Source: Candidatus Binatus sp. (GTDB taxonomy: Bacteria; Desulfobacterota; Binatia; Binatales; Binataceae). Taken from it: DNA of 64,000 nt. The stretch covers positions 3,501-67,500 of the forward strand of contig JBEKLS010000002.1 in assembly GCA_050010075.1 (NCBI GenBank). The letters are read 5' to 3'. This document shows, in pieces, positions 56,529 through 64,000 of this stretch (position 1 is its first letter; each line of letters starts with the position of its first letter). Below the pieces are notes generated by a model. The model saw only the letters and a list, made by a program, of their open reading frames with translations. It was not told the DNA's origin and made no database searches. The translations under genes and the position numbers were made by a program.

Positions 56529-57578
56529 TCAGTTTCGGTCCGGCGCGCTCATCGCGACGATCGCGTCCGCCATTTCCGCCGGTTCGATTTGAGTCAGGCA
56601 GTTGTAATGACCGAAGCGGCAAGTGCGCGCCAGGCATGGGCTGCATTCGAGCTTGCGATAAATCACGCGCGTCTTCGGCCCAAGCGGTCCGGTGCGATTC
56701 GGATTGGTCGAGCCGAAAATCGCGACGGTAGGGATTCCGAGCGCGCCCGCGATATGCATGCTGCCCGAGTCGTTGCCGATGAAGCCGTCGCACAGGGACA
56801 GCAGCGCGATCAGCTCGCCGATATTGGTGTGTCCCGCCGCGATCATCGCGCCGGCCTTGCTGGCAGCCGCGACCTGCTCGCAGACCGCGCGCTCGGACGG
56901 CGCGCCCACCAGCACGACCTCGGCGTCCTCGCGCCGCGCAATCAAATCGATCAGCGCGCCATACCTTTCCGCGGGCCACTCCTTGGCCGGTCCGTAGGCA
57001 GCGGCGGGAGCGATGGCAAATAGGCGACTGTCTGAACGCTTGCGATTCACCGCGAGCCACTCGCGCATCCGCTCGCGATGAGGCTCGTGCACATCGATCG
57101 CGAAATCATCGGCGGTGCCGGCGGCAACTCCGGTCCCGCGCACCATCGCGAGCCAGTACTTCACCTGATGCCCGTTCATCGCCTCGGGCGGCGGCGAGGC
57201 CTTTAGTGTCAGCATCGCGCCGCGCGCATCGGCGACAAATCCCGCGCGTCGCCGGATTCCCGCCATCGTGATCCACAGGGCCGACTCGAAACTGTTGGGG
57301 AACAACACTCCGAGATCGAATCGCCGCGAGCGAATCTCGCCGACGATCCGTCGCCGATCGAAAAAACCGGAAAGACCGCGCCCGACCGAGTATGGAATCA
57401 CCTCGTCGATCCAGCCGGCGCCGTCAAAGAAGTTTGCGAGCTCCTTTTTGACAAGCACGGCCAGATGCGCGTCAGGGTAGGTGCGCCGAATCGCAAGCAG
57501 CGCGGGCAGGCTCATCACGATATCGCCGAGCCAGTTAACTTCCTTGACGAGGATGCGCGCGGGCGGCGGCTCGAGCAT
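56529..57578 (-). CDS. waaF: ADP-heptose:LPS heptosyltransferase II (GT9)
   Basis: I start the gene at the ATG at 57578 (MLEPPPARILVKEVNWLGDIVMSLPAL...). FIGNDSGSMHIAGALGIPTVAIFGSTNP, and the C-terminal CSPCLARTCRFGHYNCL typical of WaaF. The 50-codon upstream extension is probably not translated. Confidence 0.85.
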   Translation of the reverse strand: MLEPPPARILVKEVNWLGDIVMSLPALLAIRRTYPDAHLAVLVKKELANFFDGAGWIDEVIPYSVGRGLSGFFDRRRIVGEIRSRRFDLGVLFPNSFESALWITMAGIRRRAGFVADARGAMLTLKASPPPEAMNGHQVKYWLAMVRGTGVAAGTADDFAIDVHEPHRERMREWLAVNRKRSDSRLFAIAPAAAYGPAKEWPAERYGALIDLIARREDAEVVLVGAPSERAVCEQVAAASKAGAMIAAGHTNIGELIALLSLCDGFIGNDSGSMHIAGALGIPTVAIFGSTNPNRTGPLGPKTRVIYRKLECSPCLARTCRFGHYNCLTQIEPAEMADAIVAMSAPDRN

Positions 57579-57736
57579 AACGGCGGGCGTCGTCGACGGC
57601 GCTGTGCGCGAATCGAGCTTGGCTTCGTGTCGGAAATTTTCGGATTCCACGATCAAGATTCCCGGCGATACCTGCGATGCCGCCGGCAAAGATTTCATCA
57701 CGCGAGCGTGTTCAAATAAACCCGGCAACTGGCAAG

Positions 57737-57772
57737 CAACCCAACCCCTTTCCGCGTGGGAAGGGGAACCGG
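57737..57772 (+). repeat. family R1 repeat, partial copy e
   Basis: caacccaacccctttccgcgtgggaaggggaaccgg, with hairpin CCCCTTTCC/GGGAAGGGG and the AACC(A/G)G tail. Confidence 0.7.
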
Positions 57773-57846
57773 TCGCGGAGATAATTTGCTTCCGCGTTGC
57801 GCGGGATCGTACTACTATCCGAGTCGCACGCGAGGGGATTGCTGCG

Positions 57847-59499
57847 ATGGCTGGTTTGAGAGATCGACCGCTGATGCGCGATGCGCTGCTCGCCGGTGGA
57901 GTGATCGCCGCGGGCGCGATTGCGGCGTTGATCGCACTCGATCACGGCGCGCCCCTCAGTTCTCATTTCAGTTCGGTGGTGTCGGCGCCTGTCCGTCCCG
58001 ACGCGCCGGCGGCGGGGTTGAAAACATCCCGCGCCGCGATCGATGCGCGCGGTGCCACTCACGCCGTCGCCAGCCCGCAACAAATCGGATTGGCGCCAAC
58101 TTCGGTGAAAAAGAAATCGAGCGGCCCGACTTTGGTACTGATGGTTCCGGATTTGCCGCCGCGCCAGAATCCTGTCGCGCCGAATTCCGGCATGTGGATC
58201 GAACAGGGCAGCGGTGGTCCTGTTACAGGCCCGAATCCTCAAGGTTCCGGGCCGATTGCGATGGGCGTGGTCGGTGGCGTCTCGGCTCCGCTGACTTCGC
58301 CGACGGGGCAGTCGCAACCGAGTTTTCCGGCTGCGCCTAAAGCTCCCGTAGTTGCATCAAGCTCTGCTCACACGGCAGCGTCGCACCCGGCGAGCCAATC
58401 AGCTGATACGACGACGCATGCCGGGTTCGTGCTGCTGGCGGGCGGCCACGGCGACGGCCAGTTCGCGCTCTCGAGCGCGGAGCTTTTCGATCCAGCCAGG
58501 AACGCATTCGCCGCCGCGCCGTCGATGAAGGATGCGCGCACGGATCACACGGCCACAGTATTGCCCAGCGGCAAAATTTTGGTCGCCGGCGGCGAAGGAC
58601 CCTCGGGTCGCGCTTTGTCGTCGGCTGAGCTGTACGATCCTGGCAGCGGAAAATTTTCCGCGGTCGCCTCGAAGATGGACACTGCGCGCGCCGAGCATAC
58701 CGCGACGTTGATTTCCGGATGCAACTGCGCCGCCGACGGACAGGTGTTAATCGCGGGCGGCACCACGGCGACGGGCTCGCTCGGCACCACGCTGAGGAGC
58801 GCGGAACTTTACGACCCCGCAACGGGAGTTTTCACGGCGACTGGCGCGATGAAGGCGACGCGCGCGGGACACACGGCGACGTTGCTCGCGAGCGGTCCGT
58901 TGGCGGGCAACGTGCTGATAGCAGGCGGCACCAGCGACGAGAGCGGCGGCGAAGTCGCGACGGCTGAGCTGTACGATCCGGTCGCCGGAGAGTTCACTTT
59001 GACGGGCAGGATGAGCACGCCGCGCAAAGGTCATAGCGCCACCTGGCTTTCGCCGACAGTTGTGACGGGCACCCTCGCGGGCAACGTGCTGGTGGCTGGC
59101 GGCGGTGACGTGAGTGCCCCGAACGACAGCGCGGAAGTTTTCAATCCGCAGACGGCGGGGTTTTCACCGGTGGGCGCGATGACCACGCCGCGTACGCTTC
59201 AATCGGCGGTGTTGCTGGACAGCGGCAAGGTGCTGATCGCAGGCGGTCAGAGCAGCGATTCGGATTTTCTGCTGAGCGCTGAGCTGTTCGACCCGGTGCA
59301 AGCCACCTTTGCCGCGACCGGCTCGATGCATAACGTCCACGCCGGCGCCACTGCAACTGTGCTCAACAGCGGCAGCGCGCTGGTCGCGGGTGGCAGATCG
59401 AGCTTCGCGGATCTCTACGACCCCACGGCGGGAACCTTCTCGGCTACGAGCAGCATGATCACCGACGTTGCCGAATCGACCTCGACGCTAATCAAGTAG
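57847..59499 (+). CDS. membrane-anchored Kelch-repeat beta-propeller protein
   Basis: ATG at 57847 after GAGGGG. TM anchor ALLAGGVIAAGAIAALIAL. A Pro/Ser-rich spacer. Six or seven Kelch units of the form AELYDPxxGxFxxxGxMxxxRxxHTATLLxxGxVLIAGG. Confidence 0.85.
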   Translation: MAGLRDRPLMRDALLAGGVIAAGAIAALIALDHGAPLSSHFSSVVSAPVRPDAPAAGLKTSRAAIDARGATHAVASPQQIGLAPTSVKKKSSGPTLVLMVPDLPPRQNPVAPNSGMWIEQGSGGPVTGPNPQGSGPIAMGVVGGVSAPLTSPTGQSQPSFPAAPKAPVVASSSAHTAASHPASQSADTTTHAGFVLLAGGHGDGQFALSSAELFDPARNAFAAAPSMKDARTDHTATVLPSGKILVAGGEGPSGRALSSAELYDPGSGKFSAVASKMDTARAEHTATLISGCNCAADGQVLIAGGTTATGSLGTTLRSAELYDPATGVFTATGAMKATRAGHTATLLASGPLAGNVLIAGGTSDESGGEVATAELYDPVAGEFTLTGRMSTPRKGHSATWLSPTVVTGTLAGNVLVAGGGDVSAPNDSAEVFNPQTAGFSPVGAMTTPRTLQSAVLLDSGKVLIAGGQSSDSDFLLSAELFDPVQATFAATGSMHNVHAGATATVLNSGSALVAGGRSSFADLYDPTAGTFSATSSMITDVAESTSTLIK

Positions 59500-59504
59500 C
59501 GGAA

Positions 59505-60026
59505 TTATTTCTTGAGCGCGGCGATTACGTCATTGACGATCGCATCGGCCTTCGCGCGCATCTGATCGTCGGTTGCGTCCTGAATCGGATGCGGTACGAA
59601 CACGCGGCGAAGCTCAGGCAACCCCAACGCCTCGGCCTGCCGCTCGGCGGCGTCGACGAACTCGTTGGACGCGATTACCACCGCGGGCTTCTTATTTATC
59701 TCGAACCATACGGAGTCGTGCACACTGCACGTGGTGCACGACCCTCAGTCGGCGAGCGCTTCAATAACGAAGTCGCACTCCTGCGCGATACGGCGGCGCA
59801 GGTCGTCGGGCGCCGGCTTGGTGAAGGTGGGTTTGCGAAAGCGCTTGAGCTCGATGCCCGGCAGGCGGTCCTGAAGATGCTCGGCGAGCCGGTCGATCAA
59901 CACGTTGCCGCGCGGCTTGGAGATGTCGAGCAGCCCGACGCGGCCGGCGATAGTGTCCGAGCGGGCGGCGAGCGTGCGTCGAATCGGCACGCGCTCGTCA
60001 GTCGGATCGATGATCACCTGTTTCAT
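59505..60026 (-). CDS. UGSC-family selenoprotein (in-frame TGA at 59745..59747 read as selenocysteine, residue 94 of 173)
   Basis: Track ORFs 59745..60083 and 59505..59723 are in the same frame and separated only by TGA plus 7 sense codons. The readthrough product is MKQVIIDPTDERV...QECDFVIEALAD-U-GSCTTCSVHDSVWFEINKKPAVVIASNEF...VIAALKK. The UGSC motif is the name-giving motif of that family. ATG 60026 follows GGAG and overlaps the upstream stop (ATGA). A hairpin starts directly 3' of the TGA. Confidence 0.8.
59713..59744 (-). promoter_or_regulatory. candidate bacterial SECIS hairpin for the UGSC gene
   Basis: The RNA after the UGA reads GGGUCGUGCAC-CACGUGCAGU-GUGCACGACUC. It forms an 11-bp stem (one G-U pair). 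The apical region can be refolded into a GUGCA loop that contains the GU typical of SelB-binding loops. Confidence 0.6.
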
Positions 60027-61624
60027 GCCGTCTCCTCGATTCGCCGGCTGACGCTCGACGATCCCATCGGACCCGAGACCCATCCGGCGAACACCGCCGA
60101 GAATTTTCCGGCGTTGCCGCCAGCCACGATGATATTGATATCCTCCGGCTTGCGAAACTTCGCAATCTTTTCCGCGAGCTGTTCTTCGGTCGGCGTGCCA
60201 AGTGCGCTCAGTGGAATTCCTTCTCCGCTATCGTCGTCGCGCAGCAATTCACGCAACGGGCGCGCCGTCACTTCCTGGATGCGCGCGCGCAAATTCGCCT
60301 TGGTCCATTTCTCGCGCGCCAGCGTGTCGGCATGCTCGGGACAAACGACGAGCAGAATCTCGCCGCTGTTGTGCGACTTGGGATGCCAGCATGCTTCGAG
60401 GCCCATGCCGAGACTGCCGCCGAGCGCGCGCGCCGTTCGCGAAGTTTGATCGGCAATCTGGCGCGAGCCCGCCTCCAGCCCGAACACGGTCACGACGCTT
60501 TCATCCTGCTTGAACCCGCGCTCGACGTGCAGCGGCTCCCACGGACTGCGCTCCTCCCACTCGGCGAAGCACGTCGTGAACTTGCCGGGCGCACCCAGCG
60601 TAGAGCGCTCGATCTCGCCCGGCCGCGCGCCGCCGACGTTGCGCAGCACGAGTTTCAGCGCGCGCCCGATGGTTGCGTTGGAACGCGTGCCGTAGCCGAG
60701 CGCCATCATGCCCATGTTCATGTCGAGACGATGGCGAATCGGACCGCTGACGACGATCACCGGCGTCGCGCCCCAGGTCGTGGACATGATGCCGTGGATG
60801 TTGAAGGTGTCGGTGCAGACCGCTTCGAGCGCCGCGATCACCACCGGCAGATACTCGGGCTTGCATCCGGCCATCACGGCGTTGACCGCGACTTTTTCGA
60901 CGCTGACGGGCGCAAGATTCGGCGGCACGATCGCAACGATGTCGCGCGGGTCGCGCCGCGTTCCCGTCAGCATCCACATCACGCGCTCGGGCGTCGGCGG
61001 CACCACAGGCAAACCGTCGGTGAGCCCGCGCTCGAACATGAATTCGAAGACGTCTTCGGCGTCGCCGAGTTCGATTCGACGCGCGGTCAGCTTGTCGCCG
61101 CGCGCGTTTGCTTCGAGGCGCTCAGCGATTCCAGGTTCGACCGATTTGGAACCGCATCCAGGGCGCGACTCAGGATATGAATTCCAATCGACGGACGGCG
61201 ATTGTAGTCCCGATTGCCGCGACAACTCGGCGAACATCTCGCGCCAATCGTCGCGTCCGAAACCGACGAAGCGCCGCTGCTCGTGGCCATGCGAGTCAGC
61301 GAGGATGATTGTCGGCACCGTGTCGAGGTCGTAGTTGAAGGAGACCGCGAGCGATGAATCGTCGAGCATCGGCGCCGAGAGCGCATAACGTTCGACGAGC
61401 TTCGCGTTGCCCTCGGCATCCTGGCCTACCACCCACACATCGATGGATGCACCGAAGGCGCGATGCGCGGCCTCGATCAGCGGCATCGTCATTGCGCAGG
61501 TCGGGCAATCTTCCTTGACGAAGCAGAGCAGGGCGGCGCGGGCAGACGGGAATGAACGCCCTGTGCCATGCGTATCGAGCAGCTCAAACGCTGGCAATGA
61601 ATTTGCCGGCGAATCTTTCATCAC
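60023..61624 (-). CDS. thioredoxin-fold (CPTC) domain fused to a ~380-aa conserved domain of unknown function
   Basis: 533 aa. The N-terminal TlpA/AhpC-like region is LPAFELLDTHGTGRSFPS...LLCFVKEDCPTCAMTMP...DTVPTIILADSHG. The remainder (GLTDGLPVVPPTPERV...VNAVMAGCKPEYLPVVIAALEA...GPIRHRLDMNMG...GRALKLVLRNVGGARPGEIERSTLGAPGKFTTCFAE) matched no named family I can recall. Confidence 0.75.
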   Translation of the reverse strand: MMKDSPANSLPAFELLDTHGTGRSFPSARAALLCFVKEDCPTCAMTMPLIEAAHRAFGASIDVWVVGQDAEGNAKLVERYALSAPMLDDSSLAVSFNYDLDTVPTIILADSHGHEQRRFVGFGRDDWREMFAELSRQSGLQSPSVDWNSYPESRPGCGSKSVEPGIAERLEANARGDKLTARRIELGDAEDVFEFMFERGLTDGLPVVPPTPERVMWMLTGTRRDPRDIVAIVPPNLAPVSVEKVAVNAVMAGCKPEYLPVVIAALEAVCTDTFNIHGIMSTTWGATPVIVVSGPIRHRLDMNMGMMALGYGTRSNATIGRALKLVLRNVGGARPGEIERSTLGAPGKFTTCFAEWEERSPWEPLHVERGFKQDESVVTVFGLEAGSRQIADQTSRTARALGGSLGMGLEACWHPKSHNSGEILLVVCPEHADTLAREKWTKANLRARIQEVTARPLRELLRDDDSGEGIPLSALGTPTEEQLAEKIAKFRKPEDINIIVAGGNAGKFSAVFAGWVSGPMGSSSVSRRIEETA

Positions 61625-62895
61625 TGCGACGGCGGAGGCAGGGGCGGAGCGGATGCGCTGGATTCCGGCACCATCAGAAATTGATTCTGCGTCGTCGAAT
61701 AAAACTCGACTGACGCTGTTACCAGCGCTCTCTCGGCGATGCCGCCGGCGACCAGCACCTCGCCGTCATTTAGCAGCGTTGCGGTGTTGGTGAGGCGTGC
61801 GACGTGGGTCGGGCCGACTTGCGAGAACAAATTCGTCTCGGGCATGAAGACTTCCGCGTCGCGCATCCCGACCACGATCGGCCCCTGGATGGTCCATCCG
61901 CCGACGACCAGTACGTTGCCATTGTCAAGCCTCGTCGCAGTCGCCAGGTAATGTGGCGCGGCCATGTTGCCGGTGGCGATGAAGCTGTTCGATTCGGGGT
62001 CGTAGATTTCCGCGGTGTTCAGCGGCGTCAGCGAAGCGATATTGGGAGCTCCCGACATCATGACTCTGCCGCTCTTGCCGCCGACGATCAGCACGCGGCC
62101 GTCGCTCAACCTGACCGCAGCCGCGCCGACGCGATCGCTCTTCATGTGCGCGAACATCGGCGAGAAGCTGCTGGTGCTCGGATTGTACATCTCGGCGGTG
62201 TCGTAAGAGATGTAGTTGCCCGGCATGCCGCCGCGGCCGCCGCCTGCGATCAGCACGTTGCCGGTGCCGAGCAGCGCGGCGACGTGCGCGACGCGCGGCT
62301 GATTCAAACTGCCGGTGAGGTTGAAGGTGCCGCTCGCAGGAAAGTAAATCTCGGCGGTGCCCAGCGTGTGGATGCCGTTGTCACTGCCGCCGACTATCAG
62401 CACGGTCCCGTCGCGCAGCATCGTTGCGGTATGCCCTTCGCGCGGCACGGACATCGAGCCGGTCGCGGTGAAGGTGCCGGCGCTCGGGTCATAGATTTCC
62501 GCACTGGCCAGCTCCGAGCGATAGCCGGCGTTCTGCACGCCGCCGGTCAGTAACACGCGTCCGTCGGACAGCATTGTGATAGTTTGCCCGGCGCGCGGGA
62601 CGGTCATCGAGCCGGTCGCGGCGAAGGATTGCGTTGCGGGATCGTAAAGCTCGGCGCTCGAGAGCACTCCCCCGACCTGGCCTGTCGCCGTGCCGCCGCA
62701 TATCAGCACGCGTCCGTCGCGCAGGCGAATCGCGGCGGCGTTGGCGCGCGGCGTGGTCATCGCGAGCGCGGCGACCTGGTTACCTTGCGGACTGGTCAGG
62801 AAGACGGGCGGCGCTTCGGAAATCCCGGAGCCTCCGCATCCGCTGAGTACAGCCGCGACGAGAAACGACAAGACAATGAGAAATCGGCGTTGCAT
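61621..62895 (-). CDS. Kelch-repeat lipoprotein
   Basis: ATG at 62895: MQRRFLIVLSFLVAAVLSGC, with lipobox LSGC. Seven or so Kelch units (AELYDPATQSFAATGSMTVPRAGQTITMLSDGRVLLTGG, and others). The stop overlaps the downstream gene's start (ATGA at 61621..61624). Confidence 0.85.
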   Translation of the reverse strand: MQRRFLIVLSFLVAAVLSGCGGSGISEAPPVFLTSPQGNQVAALAMTTPRANAAAIRLRDGRVLICGGTATGQVGGVLSSAELYDPATQSFAATGSMTVPRAGQTITMLSDGRVLLTGGVQNAGYRSELASAEIYDPSAGTFTATGSMSVPREGHTATMLRDGTVLIVGGSDNGIHTLGTAEIYFPASGTFNLTGSLNQPRVAHVAALLGTGNVLIAGGGRGGMPGNYISYDTAEMYNPSTSSFSPMFAHMKSDRVGAAAVRLSDGRVLIVGGKSGRVMMSGAPNIASLTPLNTAEIYDPESNSFIATGNMAAPHYLATATRLDNGNVLVVGGWTIQGPIVVGMRDAEVFMPETNLFSQVGPTHVARLTNTATLLNDGEVLVAGGIAERALVTASVEFYSTTQNQFLMVPESSASAPPLPPPSQ

Positions 62896-62934
62896 GCGCG
62901 CAAAATCATAGGCTTGCCGGGCCAAGATGGGAAG

Positions 62935-63519
62935 TTACTTATTCGGTGAACGAACGCCGTGGCGCAGCGCGTTCATCGTCGCGCGGACGAACATCGCGCC
63001 CGGCCATACGCCGCGCTTGCTCGGAGCCGTCGTGGTCCCGGCGCCGCCGCCAAGTTCGCGCACGAATGCGAGCAGTTCCTCGACGTTGACGCGCGACGCG
63101 ACGTCTTCCAACGCGCGGAAACGCACGACGCGATCGCGATCTATTACGAACGCTGCCGGGAAGGCGATGCCGCCTTTTTCTGCGCGGTTGAACAGGTCAT
63201 ACGCTTTGACGACTTCGCGGCTGGTGTCGCATAGCAGCGGAAATTTGAGGCCGAGTTCCTGGCGGACCGGCTCGGAGCGCGCGGCGTCATCAACCGAGAT
63301 TGCGACCAGTGCGGCTCCGGCTGCGCGAAATTCTTCGAAATGCTGCGAGTAGTCCGCCAACTGGCGAAGGCAGAACGGTCACCAATGGCCGCGATAGAAA
63401 ACGACGATGCACAATCCTCCAGCGATCAGATCATCGAGGCGGCGAATCGCGCCGGTCGAGTCGGCGAGCGTGAACTCAGGCGCGCGCTCGCCTACCGACG
63501 GAGTTTTGCGTTCGTCCAT
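62935..63519 (-). CDS. peroxiredoxin-like (AhpC/TSA-fold) selenoprotein, U-P-F-C active site (TGA at 63379..63381 read as selenocysteine, residue 47 of 194)
   Basis: The track ORF begins at an internal TTG (63360). Extending the same frame upstream through the TGA to ATG 63519 gives MDERKTPSVGERAPEFTLADSTGAIRRLDDLIAGGLCIVVFYRGHW-U-PFCLRQLADYSQHFEEFRAAGAALVAISVDD.... This restores the full N-terminal half of the Prx fold, with Sec exactly where the peroxidatic Cys sits in FYRGHWCP(F/Y)C homologues. Confidence 0.85.
63343..63373 (-). promoter_or_regulatory. candidate bacterial SECIS hairpin for the Prx-like gene
   Basis: The RNA reads UGA-CCGUU-CUGC-C-UUCGCC-AGUU-GGCGGA-CUACUC-GCAG. It has a 6-bp apical stem with a GU-containing tetraloop that begins about 10 nt after the UGA, closed by a 4-bp lower stem. 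Confidence 0.5.
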
Positions 63520-63545
63520 CGCTCAACAATAGCCGCGCCCGCGCC

Positions 63546-64000
63546 TCAGAGGAACATCGTTCCTTCGCCCACGATCACGCATCGCCCGCCGATGCGGATT
63601 GCGAACGCGCCGCTGTCCTTGCGCGCGACCTCGACGCGAATCTCGCTCGGCCGTCGCATTTCGACGCCTTGCTTGATGAGGAACGAAGTCCTGGGCGCGG
63701 GCTTTATCAATCCATACGTGGCGGCATACGCGCCGAACGGAGCTGCCGCGCTGCCGGTCGCCGGGTCTTCGGCAACTCCGGAGTGAGGCGCGAACATCCG
63801 CGAGCGAACCGCGAACTCGCCCGACCCGTTCGCGACGAACATATAGATGAGCAGCACCTGCTCGCCCGGTTTGAACAGCGACGCGATTGCCGGCGCGTTG
63901 GGCGCGCACTTCGCGAGCGCATCAAGCGTGCGCAGCGGAATAAAGATGAAGGGTACGCCGGTCGAGACGACCTGGATCGGCAGATCATCGCGAAGGTCCG
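63546..64000 (-). CDS. PhzF-family isomerase, N-terminus beyond window edge
   Basis: The frame is open from position 64000: ...DLRDDLPIQVVSTGVPFIFIPLRTLDALAKCAPN...LLIYMFVANGSGEFAVRSRMFAPHSGVAEDPATGSAAAPFGAY... The motif FAP..G..EDPATGSA is the PhzF/YHI9 signature. The track shows only the internal GTG-initiated part, 63546..63857. Confidence 0.85.
   Translation of the reverse strand, partial: DLRDDLPIQVVSTGVPFIFIPLRTLDALAKCAPNAPAIASLFKPGEQVLLIYMFVANGSGEFAVRSRMFAPHSGVAEDPATGSAAAPFGAYAATYGLIKPAPRTSFLIKQGVEMRRPSEIRVEVARKDSGAFAIRIGGRCVIVGEGTMFL

What the first reader, a model, noticed from the sequence alone, without database searches (positions are those of the whole stretch)
59505..64000. Five-gene minus-strand redox cluster carrying two selenoproteins
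All five genes are on the minus strand with tiny or overlapping junctions. The order is PhzF-family isomerase (63546..>64000), Sec-peroxiredoxin-like (62935..63519), Kelch lipoprotein (61621..62895), Trx-fold fusion protein (60023..61624) and UGSC selenoprotein (59505..60026). The junctions at 61621..61624 and 60023..60026 are ATGA overlaps. Two Sec codons and a CPTC thioredoxin fold within 4 kb suggest one thiol/selenol redox module, possibly acting in the envelope. I do not recognise this combination as a described pathway. If it is conserved, it is the best candidate in this window for an uncharacterised system.
Basis: inference. Interest (0 to 1): 0.75.

Follow-up and report, generated by a model that had tools for sequence, protein, structure and literature searches.

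The report
Conserved two-gene UGSC selenoenzyme module
The five genes and both selenocysteine codons are real, but only two genes form a conserved unit: the UGSC selenoprotein and a 533-residue thioredoxin-fusion protein, found side by side in hundreds of bacterial species and likely forming an uncharacterised selenium-dependent enzyme.

Summary
Five co-directional minus-strand genes lie at 59505-64000, two with in-frame TGA codons that encode selenocysteine.

The five-gene "redox module" does not hold. A Binataceae relative whose 533-aa homologue is 68% identical keeps the same backbone (thiolase, pair, heptosyltransferase, LpxD) but lacks PhzF, the Sec-Prx-like gene and both Kelch genes.

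What is conserved is the pair:
- **Partner side:** UGSC follows the partner gene in 76 of 80 species-representative genomes from about ten phyla.
- **UGSC side:** the partner sits directly upstream in 66 of 71 assessable metagenome loci.
- **Fusions:** the two are fused in either order in some organisms.

The about 370-residue partner domain has no Pfam or NCBIfam model. A confident AlphaFold model has no PDB match. In this lineage it carries an N-terminal TlpA/ResA-like CPTC thioredoxin domain.

UGSC proves to be a remote relative of the Sec region of glycine/proline-reductase selenoprotein B (hhalign E 7e-6, Sec aligned to Sec).

My best reading is a cytoplasmic two-subunit thiol/selenol reductase with a built-in thioredoxin-like electron donor. 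The substrate is unknown. Stand-alone versions sit in organic-acid and amine catabolic clusters.

This is a known selenoprotein family of unknown function, now with a defined obligate partner.

The parts
59505..60026 (-). UGSC-family selenoprotein, 173 aa, motif ALAD-U-GSC-TTC-SVH. Core component 2.
   Evidence: NF041046 162 bits (cut-off 125); PF24696 E 9e-48. hhalign to GRDB/PrdB-like profile: probability 84%, E 7e-6, Sec aligned to Sec.
59745..59747 (-). TGA read as selenocysteine (residue 94 of UGSC).
   Evidence: TGA at this column in 77/77 genome homologues and 80/80 metagenome homologues. Cys in the Natronorubrum orthologue and in P0268.
59717..59731 (-). Conserved SECIS apical hairpin CGUGC-AGUGU-GCACG, starting 14 nt after the UGA. 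In this window it is extended to a long stem-loop at 59711-59747.
   Evidence: RNAalifold consensus over 36 sequences. Third-position entropy is 0 at codons +5 to +8. Window stem-loop -22.4 kcal/mol, z = -2.9.
60023..61624 (-). 533-aa fusion protein: N-terminal TlpA/ResA-like thioredoxin domain plus an about 370-aa 'UGSC-partner' domain. Core component 1.
   Evidence: ORF. AlphaFold pLDDT 93.2. More than 7,900 homologues.
61205..61603 (-). Thioredoxin-fold domain (residues about 8-140). The CPTC active site is at 61496-61507.
   Evidence: PF00578 27.4 bits (cut-off 26). Foldseek to ResA/StoA/DsbE: E about 1e-8, target TM 0.8. C-x-T-C in 70 or more of 86 homologues.
60026..61147 (-). UGSC-partner domain (residues 160-533). 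No Pfam or NCBIfam model. Motifs TDGLPVVPPT, NAVMAGC, RANATIGRA, C-x-x-E-x-E, P-E-H. Near-invariant Cys254 and Cys352; invariant D203, R321, E355, H431.
   Evidence: 5,369 cluster representatives at E<=1e-3. Alignments A1-A3. AlphaFold pLDDT 90.9, pTM 0.90. No PDB match at E<0.001. No profile hit in PDB sequences.
60023..60026 (-). ATGA overlap: stop of the 533-aa gene and start of UGSC (translational coupling).
   Evidence: Sequence. The same 4-nt overlap occurs in L001, L003 and L175.
61621..61624 (-). GTGA overlap: Kelch stop and GTG start of the 533-aa gene. Alternatively ATG at 61619-61621, a 1-nt overlap.
   Evidence: Sequence.
61621..62895 (-). Kelch-repeat lipoprotein. Lineage-specific neighbour, not part of the conserved module.
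   Evidence: Kelch Pfam hits. Lipobox LSGC and hydropathy 3.16. Present next to the pair only in L003 and L004. Absent in L175/L176.
62935..63519 (-). Sec-containing AhpC/TSA-fold protein with W-U-P-F-C ('Prx-like', UxxC type). Sec TGA at 63379-63381. Lineage-specific neighbour.
   Evidence: PF00578 106.6 bits. TGA conserved in L003, L004 and L023, the last at 31% identity. Weak hairpin with an AGUU loop at 63353-63374, z-score not significant.
63546..64000 (-). C-terminal half of a PhzF-family isomerase, cut by the window end. Lineage-specific neighbour.
   Evidence: TIGR00654 98.9 bits; PF02567. Next to the pair only in L003, L004 and L073.

Best explanation
The functional unit is a translationally coupled two-gene operon: the 533-aa Trx-partner gene followed by UGSC. 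It encodes a cytoplasmic two-subunit selenoenzyme.

Shown:
- The pairing is near-obligate across phyla.
- The two proteins occur as natural fusions in some organisms.
- The UGA encodes Sec, and a conserved SECIS hairpin follows it.
- The partner is a large, highly conserved domain with no characterised relative.
- UGSC is a remote homologue of the Sec-bearing region of glycine/sarcosine/betaine/proline reductase selenoprotein B (GRDB family). The two Sec residues align.

Inferred mechanism:
1. The partner domain binds a small-molecule substrate. It has invariant D, R, E and H residues and two near-invariant Cys.
2. The UGSC selenolate attacks the substrate.
3. The neighbouring Cys of the U-x-x-C-x-x-C motif resolves the adduct, leaving a selenenyl-sulfide.
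4. In this lineage the fused N-terminal TlpA/ResA-like domain (CPTC) re-reduces that bond. In stand-alone clades free thioredoxin would do so.

The substrate is unknown. Stand-alone pairs sit in catabolic clusters for organic acids or amines. Recurrent neighbours are family-III CoA-transferase, TRAP/TTT/Liv-type transporters, PrpD/MmgE and amidase/hydantoinase.

The PhzF, Sec-Prx-like and Kelch genes are recent lineage-specific neighbours. The Sec-Prx-like protein could at most be an accessory reductant.
For: - **Adjacency, partner side:** 76/80 genomes.
- **Adjacency, UGSC side:** 66/71 assessable metagenome loci.
- **Adjacency for stand-alone partners:** all eight stand-alone partner proteins looked up have a UGSC gene adjacent.
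- **Fusions in both orders:** P0142, P0164, P0195, P0219 and P0215 are partner followed by UGSC, with the gene call ending exactly at the Sec column. P0176 and P0268 are UGSC followed by partner.
- **Other neighbours:** no other neighbour family occurs in more than 6 of 80 loci.
- **Backbone test:** L175/L176 keep the pair but not the three other genes.
- **Sec evidence:**
- **UGSC to GRDB:** hhalign score 41.5, E 7e-6. Reversed, column-shuffled (20 trials) and unrelated controls score 10-18. The template sequences match PF07355.
- **Trx domain:** Foldseek to ResA/StoA, target TM about 0.8. C-x-T-C is conserved.
- **Compartment:** no signal peptides on the pair.
- **Literature:** a 'UGSC/Unknown_1' fusion was noted in 2008, and UGSC is still listed as of unknown function in 2026 (PMC2398784; PMC13188914).
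Against: - The partner shows no detectable similarity to PrdA/GrdE or to any Pfam family. The GRDB analogy therefore covers only one subunit.
- The UGSC-GRDB link is remote. Pfam's GRDB model does not hit UGSC.
- No structure of UGSC or of the complex was computed, so the proximity of Sec, the partner Cys residues and CPTC is untested.
- Some UGSC-like domains fused to partners have lost the Sec/Cys motif (P0238, P0176). This does not fit an essential catalytic selenol in every member.
- 5 of 71 UGSC loci and 4 of 80 partner loci lack the other gene nearby.
- Many hosts are aerobes, in which Stickland-type reductases are not known.
- The contexts of stand-alone pairs are heterogeneous, so no single substrate emerges.
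Confidence: 0.6

Rival explanations
1. First reader's model. All five genes (PhzF, Sec-Prx-like, Kelch lipoprotein, Trx-fusion, UGSC) form one thiol/selenol redox system, possibly acting in the envelope.
For: - The genes are co-directional with gaps of 39 nt or less and two overlaps. No terminator-like site lies between them.
- The arrangement is identical in L003 and L004.
- A Sec-Prx-like gene also flanks the pair in L023, and another Sec Prx-like gene plus PhzF flank it in L073.
Against: - L175/L176 keep the backbone and the pair but lack PhzF, Prx and both Kelch genes.
- Prx is present in 4, PhzF in 3 and Kelch in 2 of 80 or more loci.
- L003 and L004 are syntenic over the whole 17-kb locus, so their agreement carries little information.
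- Only Kelch is exported.
- A promoter-like site lies between Prx and Kelch.
Confidence: 0.06
2. The pair is a non-redox two-subunit enzyme, such as a hydro-lyase, isomerase or decarboxylase for di- or tricarboxylates or their CoA esters. The U/C-x-x-C-x-x-C...H motif and the partner Cys residues would ligate a metal or Fe-S centre.
For: - Stand-alone pairs lie beside PrpD/MmgE, aconitase, TctABC, DctPQM, family-III CoA-transferase and MaoC.
- The best, though weak, Foldseek matches are class I (Fe-S) fumarate hydratase and Toblerone-fold cyclic amide hydrolases (E about 0.02).
- The subunit sizes (about 350 and about 170 aa) resemble alpha/beta hydro-lyases.
- A UGSC-NifU-like fusion occurs in L090 and L093.
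Against: - The Foldseek matches have TM 0.2-0.27 and rmsd above 11 A, so they are not meaningful.
- There are no Pfam hits to Fumerase, AcnX or related families.
- Fusion to a CxxC thioredoxin domain in thousands of members argues for thiol-disulfide chemistry.
- Sec as an Fe-S ligand is not known in nature (my own knowledge).
- UGSC is homologous to redox selenoprotein B.
Confidence: 0.14
3. UGSC is not catalytic toward a metabolite. It is a dedicated redox carrier or sensor: a small selenoprotein that shuttles electrons to, or regulates, the partner enzyme. This would resemble GrdA, or a thioredoxin-like activator.
For: - UGSC is small and the UxxC motif is typical of redox carriers.
- Some fused UGSC-like domains have lost the motif while the partner stays intact. 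This suggests the partner holds the main active site.
- The partner has its own near-invariant Cys pair.
Against: - In this clade a Trx domain is already fused as electron donor, which makes a second carrier redundant.
- The homology is to substrate-attacking selenoprotein B rather than to GrdA.
- Sec is retained in 157 of 157 sampled bacterial genes, which implies strong catalytic selection.
Confidence: 0.15
4. The TGA codons are genuine stops, and the downstream ORF pieces are pseudogene remnants or separate small genes.
For: Automatic gene callers split both genes at the TGA.
Against: - The in-frame TGA is conserved at the same column in every sampled homologue, with conserved protein on both sides.
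- Cys orthologues exist.
- A conserved SECIS hairpin with frozen synonymous sites follows the UGSC codon.
Confidence: 0.01

Closest known systems
Selenoprotein B of glycine/sarcosine/betaine reductase and PrdB of D-proline reductase (Pfam GRDB, PF07355), working with GrdE/PrdA
   Same: - A Sec in a U-x-x-C motif follows a hydrophobic beta-strand. Profile-profile alignment puts Sec on Sec (E 7e-6, 151 columns).
- The Sec subunit works with a separate, larger substrate-binding subunit encoded next to it.
- It is re-reduced by a dithiol or thioredoxin system (family knowledge).
   Different: - UGSC is much shorter (173 aa) and is not hit by the Pfam GRDB model.
- The partner is unrelated to PrdA/GrdE (PF09338), and no pyruvoyl-forming proprotein is evident.
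- There are no GrdA/GrdC/GrdD genes.
- The hosts are mostly aerobic or facultative Binatia, Proteobacteria, Chloroflexota and Actinomycetota.
- The reductant domain is fused.
'UGSC-containing protein' and the 'UGSC/Unknown_1 fusion' of Zhang and Gladyshev (PMC2398784; PMC1976440)
   Same: Same selenoprotein family. The 'Unknown_1' domain they saw fused to UGSC is very probably the partner domain described here.
   Different: - The identity with Unknown_1 could not be verified, because their figure is held only as an image.
- They reported the fusion and called Unknown_1 rare ('limited number of aquatic organisms').
- Here the partner is a family of more than 5,000 clusters at 50% identity, near-obligately adjacent to UGSC, often Trx-fused, and without a structural homologue.
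TlpA/ResA/StoA/DsbE thiol-disulfide oxidoreductases (AhpC-TSA / Redoxin fold)
   Same: The N-terminal 140 residues have this fold (target TM about 0.8) and a CxxC motif.
   Different: - There is no signal peptide or membrane anchor, so the domain is cytoplasmic rather than extracytoplasmic.
- It is fused to a 370-aa catalytic-looking domain.
- The motif is C-x-T-C.
Thioredoxin-fused reductases such as Neisseria PilB (Trx-MsrA-MsrB)
   Same: Same architecture logic: a thioredoxin-like domain is fused to the reductase it recycles.
   Different: The catalytic domains are unrelated. This is an analogy only (my own knowledge; not tested).
'Prx-like 1' UxxC selenoproteins of the AhpC/TSA family (PMC2398784, Table 2)
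   Same: The 62935-63519 gene is PF00578-positive with W-U-P-F-C.
   Different: It is not a typical peroxiredoxin, because it has no T-x-x-C peroxidatic context. It is not conserved with the pair.

Membership tests
UGSC family (seleno)protein (NCBIfam NF041046 / Pfam PF24696) | HMM score above the curated cut-off | tested here: met
   162.2 bits against 125 (NCBIfam). 163.1 bits against 25 (Pfam)..
UGSC family (seleno)protein (NCBIfam NF041046 / Pfam PF24696) | U(C)-G-S-C motif with Sec encoded by an in-frame UGA followed by a SECIS hairpin | tested here: met
   ALAD-U-GSC. Conserved hairpin and frozen synonymous sites.
GRDB family (PF07355; GrdB/GrdF/GrdH/PrdB) | Match to the Pfam model | tested here: not met
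   No PF07355 hit for UGSC even at E<=10.
GRDB family (PF07355; GrdB/GrdF/GrdH/PrdB) | Profile-profile similarity with Sec aligned to Sec | tested here: met
   hhalign probability 84%, E 7.3e-6, score 41.5. Controls score 10-18. This is remote homology, not membership.
GRDB family (PF07355; GrdB/GrdF/GrdH/PrdB) | Adjacent GrdE/PrdA-type (PF09338) subunit and GrdA/GrdC/GrdD or PrdC genes | tested here: not met
   The partner has no Pfam hit. None of these families appears in the annotated neighbourhoods.
TlpA/ResA-type thiol-disulfide oxidoreductase | Thioredoxin fold with a CxxC active site | tested here: met
   PF00578 27.4 bits (cut-off 26). Foldseek E about 1e-8, target TM 0.8. CPTC motif.
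TlpA/ResA-type thiol-disulfide oxidoreductase | Extracytoplasmic location (signal peptide or membrane anchor) | tested here: not met
   No hydrophobic N-terminal segment; maximum 12-residue hydropathy 1.53. This was a simple hydropathy check, not a dedicated predictor.
Peroxiredoxin (AhpC/TSA) | PF00578 match (gene 62935-63519) | tested here: met
   106.6 bits.
Peroxiredoxin (AhpC/TSA) | Peroxidatic Cys/Sec in the P-x-x-x-T/S-x-x-C context | tested here: not met
   The sequence reads FYRGHW-U-PFC, a ResA/TlpA-like W-C-x-x-C context. All equivalog peroxiredoxin models score far below their cut-offs.
PhzF-family isomerase | TIGR00654 / PF02567 match | tested here: met
   98.9 bits against 76.2 on the C-terminal half present in the window.
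Bacterial lipoprotein (Kelch gene) | Signal peptide with an L-x-x-C lipobox | tested here: met
   MQRRFLIVLSFLVAAVLSGC, hydropathy 3.16. Read from the sequence; no dedicated predictor was run.

The most novel reading that the evidence does not exclude
The UGSC-partner pair is a new class of selenoenzyme. Its roughly 370-residue catalytic subunit has a fold absent from the PDB. Together with a miniature GrdB/PrdB-like Sec subunit, it would carry out thioredoxin-driven reductive bond cleavage (Stickland-type chemistry) on an unknown small molecule. The hosts are aerobic and facultative bacteria of many phyla. This would explain why UGSC is among the most abundant selenoproteins in aquatic metagenomes.
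Probability: 0.3. Interest if true: 0.8.

Novelty: new variant of a known kind. Interest (0 to 1): 0.6.

Why it matters
UGSC has been listed since 2007-2008 as one of the most abundant prokaryotic selenoprotein families in aquatic metagenomes. A 2026 review still describes the functions of this group of predicted selenoproteins, UGSC among them, as largely uncharacterised.

This analysis makes that open question directly testable in four ways:
- It gives UGSC a defined, near-obligate partner, with a confident structural model and a short list of invariant residues.
- It identifies a built-in thioredoxin-like donor in one large clade.
- It finds a remote evolutionary link to the selenoprotein B subunits of Stickland reductases.
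- It finds recurrent catabolic contexts that suggest substrate classes.

The two proteins can now be co-expressed and assayed together.

The analysis also shows that gene calls for this locus are systematically wrong in public data. UGSC is split in two at the TGA, and the partner is named 'peroxiredoxin' or 'TlpA'.

Tried and rejected
- **Rfam and tRNA scans of the window:** nothing found. There is no tRNA-Sec or Sec machinery in this window.
- **PDB sequence searches:** single-sequence and profile searches for the partner and for UGSC gave only Trx-domain hits or noise.
- **Foldseek, full-length model:** swamped by Trx-fold hits. I therefore spent the second structure job on the partner domain alone. 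That search gave no significant match. The weak fumarate-hydratase and Toblerone-fold matches were rejected as evidence (TM below 0.3).
- **First hhalign, UGSC against four GOS 'GrdB' reads:** aligned Sec to Sec but was not significant (E 0.31). It became significant only with an 18-sequence PrdB-like profile. Controls were run.
- **hhalign, partner against the PrdB-like profile:** negative.
- **The 2008 'Unknown_1' alignment:** it is held only as an image, so the identity with the partner domain could not be verified residue by residue.
- **Neighbour clustering over 80 loci:** noisy because of TGA read-through segments, but no second conserved neighbour emerged.
- **The 'sameORF' flag:** not reliable evidence of fusion, because an in-frame TGA stop is read through. 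Fusions are claimed only from independent gene calls.
- **Prx-like SECIS:** the fold is not better than shuffles in this window (z = +0.66). The Sec assignment there rests on conservation, not on RNA structure.
- **Unused or exhausted resources:** the third large homology search was not used.

Full report
**1. Observation**

- The C-terminal half of a PhzF-family isomerase (63546 to the window end) scores 98.9 bits on TIGR00654.
- The next gene (62935-63519) is an AhpC/TSA-fold protein, interrupted by an in-frame TGA at 63379-63381 in the motif GHW-U-PFC.
- The Kelch gene (61621-62895) starts with MQRRFLIVLSFLVAAVLSGC, a lipoprotein signal with a lipobox.
- The 533-aa ORF (60023-61624) has CPTC at residues 40-43.
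- UGSC (59505-60026) has TGA at 59745-59747 in ALAD-U-GSC. It passes the curated cut-offs of NF041046 and PF24696.

The gaps are 26 and 39 nt. The 60023-60026 junction is ATGA as stated. The 61621-61624 junction is GTGA, not ATGA. No terminator-like site separates the genes. One weak promoter-like site lies between Prx and Kelch. Homologues of the 533-aa protein place the organism in Candidatus Binatus / Binataceae.

**2. The TGAs are Sec codons**

For UGSC:
- Every homologue recovered has TGA at the same column, with conserved protein on both sides. That is 77 genes from species-representative genomes and 80 from metagenomes.
- A haloarchaeal orthologue (Natronorubrum, L084) and some fusion proteins have Cys there (DCGSC).
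- Third-codon positions at codons +5 to +8 after the UGA are invariant: TCG/ACG, TGC, AGT, GTG, with entropy 0. Other four-fold sites show 1.3-1.9 bits.
- These bases form the RNAalifold consensus hairpin CGUGC-AGUKU-GCAYG, 14 nt after the UGA. In the window it is extended to a -22.4 kcal/mol stem-loop (z = -2.9).

For the Prx-like gene:
- The TGA is conserved in L003 and L004, and in a Pseudomonadota homologue that is 31% identical (L023). All read W-U-P-F-C.
- Its hairpin is not statistically distinctive.

**3. What is conserved**

I searched 185,579 species-representative genomes with a profile of the C-terminal domain of the 533-aa protein. This gave at least 595 confirmed loci. The best 80 span Binatia, Dehalococcoidia/Chloroflexota, Gamma-, Alpha- and Betaproteobacteria, Vicinamibacteria, Actinomycetota, Myxococcota and others.

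- In 76 of the 80, a UGSC gene lies immediately downstream on the same strand.
- No other neighbour family occurs in more than 6 loci.
- A Prx-like neighbour appears in 4 loci, PhzF in 3 and Kelch in 2.
- Searching from the UGSC side in metagenomes, 66 of 71 loci with enough flank have the partner directly upstream.

The sharpest test is L175/L176. Their 533-aa homologue is 68% identical, and they keep the window's backbone: G6PD, thiolase, the pair, heptosyltransferase, LpxD. They have no PhzF, Prx or Kelch genes. The 84%-identical L003 has all of them. The three extra genes, and the convergent 672-aa Kelch gene at 57481-59499, are therefore lineage-specific insertions around a conserved pair.

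**4. The partner domain**

Residues about 160-533 have no Pfam or NCBIfam hit.

- An exhaustive HMMER scan found 5,369 cluster representatives at 50% identity.
- Most are stand-alone proteins of about 350 aa. Others carry an N-terminal Trx domain, as here. Some are tandem duplications.
- Some are fused to UGSC. Partner followed by UGSC: gene calls end exactly at profile position 92, the Sec column, in P0142, P0164, P0195, P0219 and P0215. UGSC followed by partner: P0176 and P0268.
- Invariant or near-invariant residues include D203, C254 (NAVMAGC), N316, R321 (RANATIGRA), K348, C352, E355 and H431.
- AlphaFold models are confident: pLDDT 93.2 for the full protein, and 90.9 with pTM 0.90 for the domain alone.
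- Foldseek against the PDB finds only ResA/StoA/DsbE-type matches for the N-terminal domain. It finds nothing below E = 0.016 for the partner domain, with TM at most 0.27.
- A profile search of PDB sequences is also empty.

**5. UGSC is a remote relative of selenoprotein B**

I built an 18-sequence profile from GOS 'proline reductase' selenoproteins (supplement of PMC2398784). Two of three sequences tested match PF07355.

- hhalign of the 79-sequence UGSC alignment against this profile gives score 41.5, E 7.3e-6 and probability 84%.
- It covers up to 151 columns and places Sec on Sec.
- The reversed profile, 20 column-shuffled profiles and the partner alignment score 10-18.
- Pfam's own GRDB model does not hit UGSC. 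This is remote homology, not membership.
- The partner does not resemble the PrdB-like profile.

**6. Contexts of stand-alone pairs**

All eight stand-alone partner proteins looked up with Pfam-annotated neighbourhoods have an adjacent UGSC gene (ten loci in all).

| Locus | Neighbours of the pair |
|---|---|
| L084 (Natronorubrum) | TctABC, CoA-transferase III, enoyl-CoA hydratase, luciferase-like oxygenase, DUF6282 |
| L090, L093 | CoA-transferase III abutting or overlapping the partner start, a UGSC-NifU-like fusion, DctPQM, IclR |
| L089 | CoA-transferase III, DctQM |
| L091, L094 | UGSC, then partner, then PrpD/MmgE; L091 also has Ldh_2, aconitase and a Liv-type ABC transporter |
| L092 | Inside an NMT1/OpuAC-type ABC operon, next to amidase and hydantoinase A/B |
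| L087, L088 | Divergent from a Liv-type ABC operon |
| L085, L086 | No clear catabolic cluster (L085: AMIN/Amidase_3 upstream, PIN/antitoxin downstream; L086 too short) |

These contexts point to small-molecule catabolism of organic acids or amines. No single substrate emerges. The Trx-fused clade, including the window, has no conserved context beyond the pair.

**7. Mechanism**

Shown:
- Near-obligate adjacency, fusion and translational coupling.
- Sec usage.
- A Trx-fold CxTC domain fused to the partner.
- Cytoplasmic location.
- UGSC-GRDB remote homology.

Inferred: the partner binds the substrate. The UGSC selenolate attacks it. Cys97 (or Cys100) of U-x-x-C-x-x-C resolves the adduct to a selenenyl-sulfide. 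The CPTC domain, or free thioredoxin in stand-alone clades, reduces that bond.

I put about 0.9 on 'the pair is one functional unit'. I put about 0.6 on 'thiol/selenol redox enzyme with the Trx domain as donor'. I put about 0.3 on 'GrdB/PrdB-like reductive bond cleavage'.

Rivals:
- A metal or Fe-S hydro-lyase or isomerase. The carboxylate contexts, the weak fumarate-hydratase match and the NifU fusion favour it. The Trx fusion and the GRDB homology weigh against it.
- A carrier or sensor role for UGSC. Fusions in which the UGSC-like domain has lost its Cys/Sec favour this (P0238).
- Genuine stop codons, refuted.

**8. Comparison with what is known, and novelty**

UGSC is a known selenoprotein family. 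It was first noted in Hyphomonas neptunium and in metagenomes (PMC1976440). It is among the top families in GOS, with 255 Sec against 21 Cys sequences (PMC2398784). A 2026 review still groups it with predicted selenoproteins whose functions remain largely uncharacterised (PMC13188914). The 2008 paper mentions a 'UGSC/Unknown_1' fusion and calls Unknown_1 rare.

I found no paper describing any of the following:
- the conserved operon;
- the size of the partner family;
- the Trx fusion;
- the link to selenoprotein B;
- the lack of a structural homologue.

The window's locus is one ordinary instance of this widespread pair. The system itself is an uncharacterised variant of the selenoprotein-B type of two-subunit reductase, with a new partner.

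**9. Verdict**

- Interest is 0.6. The five-gene story is not real. The two-gene core makes a long-standing question, what UGSC selenoproteins do, experimentally tractable.

Noticed in passing
L035:1371-1373 (Blastococcus sp. MAG, DASQTE010000419.1): The UGSC gene has TAG instead of TGA at the selenocysteine column (GCC GAT TAG GGC TCG TGC), with normal conserved sequence on both sides. It could be a sequencing error, a pseudogene or something stranger.
   Followed up: partly
L090:8059-8931 and L093:8044-8919: In a CoA-transferase / DctPQM / IclR context, the UGSC selenoprotein carries a C-terminal NifU-like (PF01106) extension. This is a third kind of UGSC fusion.
   Followed up: partly
P0238, P0176 (UGSC-partner fusion proteins): Some N-terminal UGSC-like domains fused to the partner have lost the redox motif. 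P0238 reads AEIGGSLFG and has no Cys or Sec. P0176 reads HCGASSSW and keeps only the first Cys. These may be degenerate or non-redox variants.
   Followed up: no
L033:10007-13908 and L059:8721-12481 (Dehalococcoidia): The Trx-partner and UGSC genes are followed by one or two further partner-domain paralogues in tandem.
   Followed up: no
L091:6320-12645: Two UGSC genes are each followed by a partner-sized protein (361 aa, and 406 aa without a Pfam hit) and each neighboured by a PrpD/MmgE gene. They sit beside aconitase, a class II aldolase and Ldh_2. This looks like a duplicated cassette in a tricarboxylate-like cluster.
   Followed up: no
L073:5722-6480 (Deltaproteobacteria MAG): A different Sec-containing Prx-like protein (motif FG-U-LHC) and a PhzF gene lie upstream of the pair. 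A second, independent association of a UxxC Trx-fold selenoprotein and PhzF with the pair may not be pure coincidence.
   Followed up: partly
window 57481-59499 (+): A 672-aa Kelch-repeat protein with a long low-complexity Pro/Ala/Ser-rich N-terminal half converges on UGSC. The two stop codons are 5 nt apart. It is a paralogue of the Kelch lipoprotein, so two Kelch genes bracket the pair in this lineage only. A terminator-like hairpin lies at 59486-59501.
   Followed up: partly
public gene calls (L001, L003, L085, L092, L175 and others): UGSC is systematically split into two ORFs (about 92-113 aa and about 72-80 aa, longer where a NifU-like extension is fused) at the Sec codon. The partner fusion is named 'peroxiredoxin', 'TlpA family' or 'hypothetical'. 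The family is mis-annotated throughout public data.
   Followed up: yes
window 56529-57728 (-) and beyond: The backbone downstream of the cluster (heptosyltransferase GT9, LpxD-like) is syntenic with L003 and L175. It was used as the frame for the insertion argument.
   Followed up: partly
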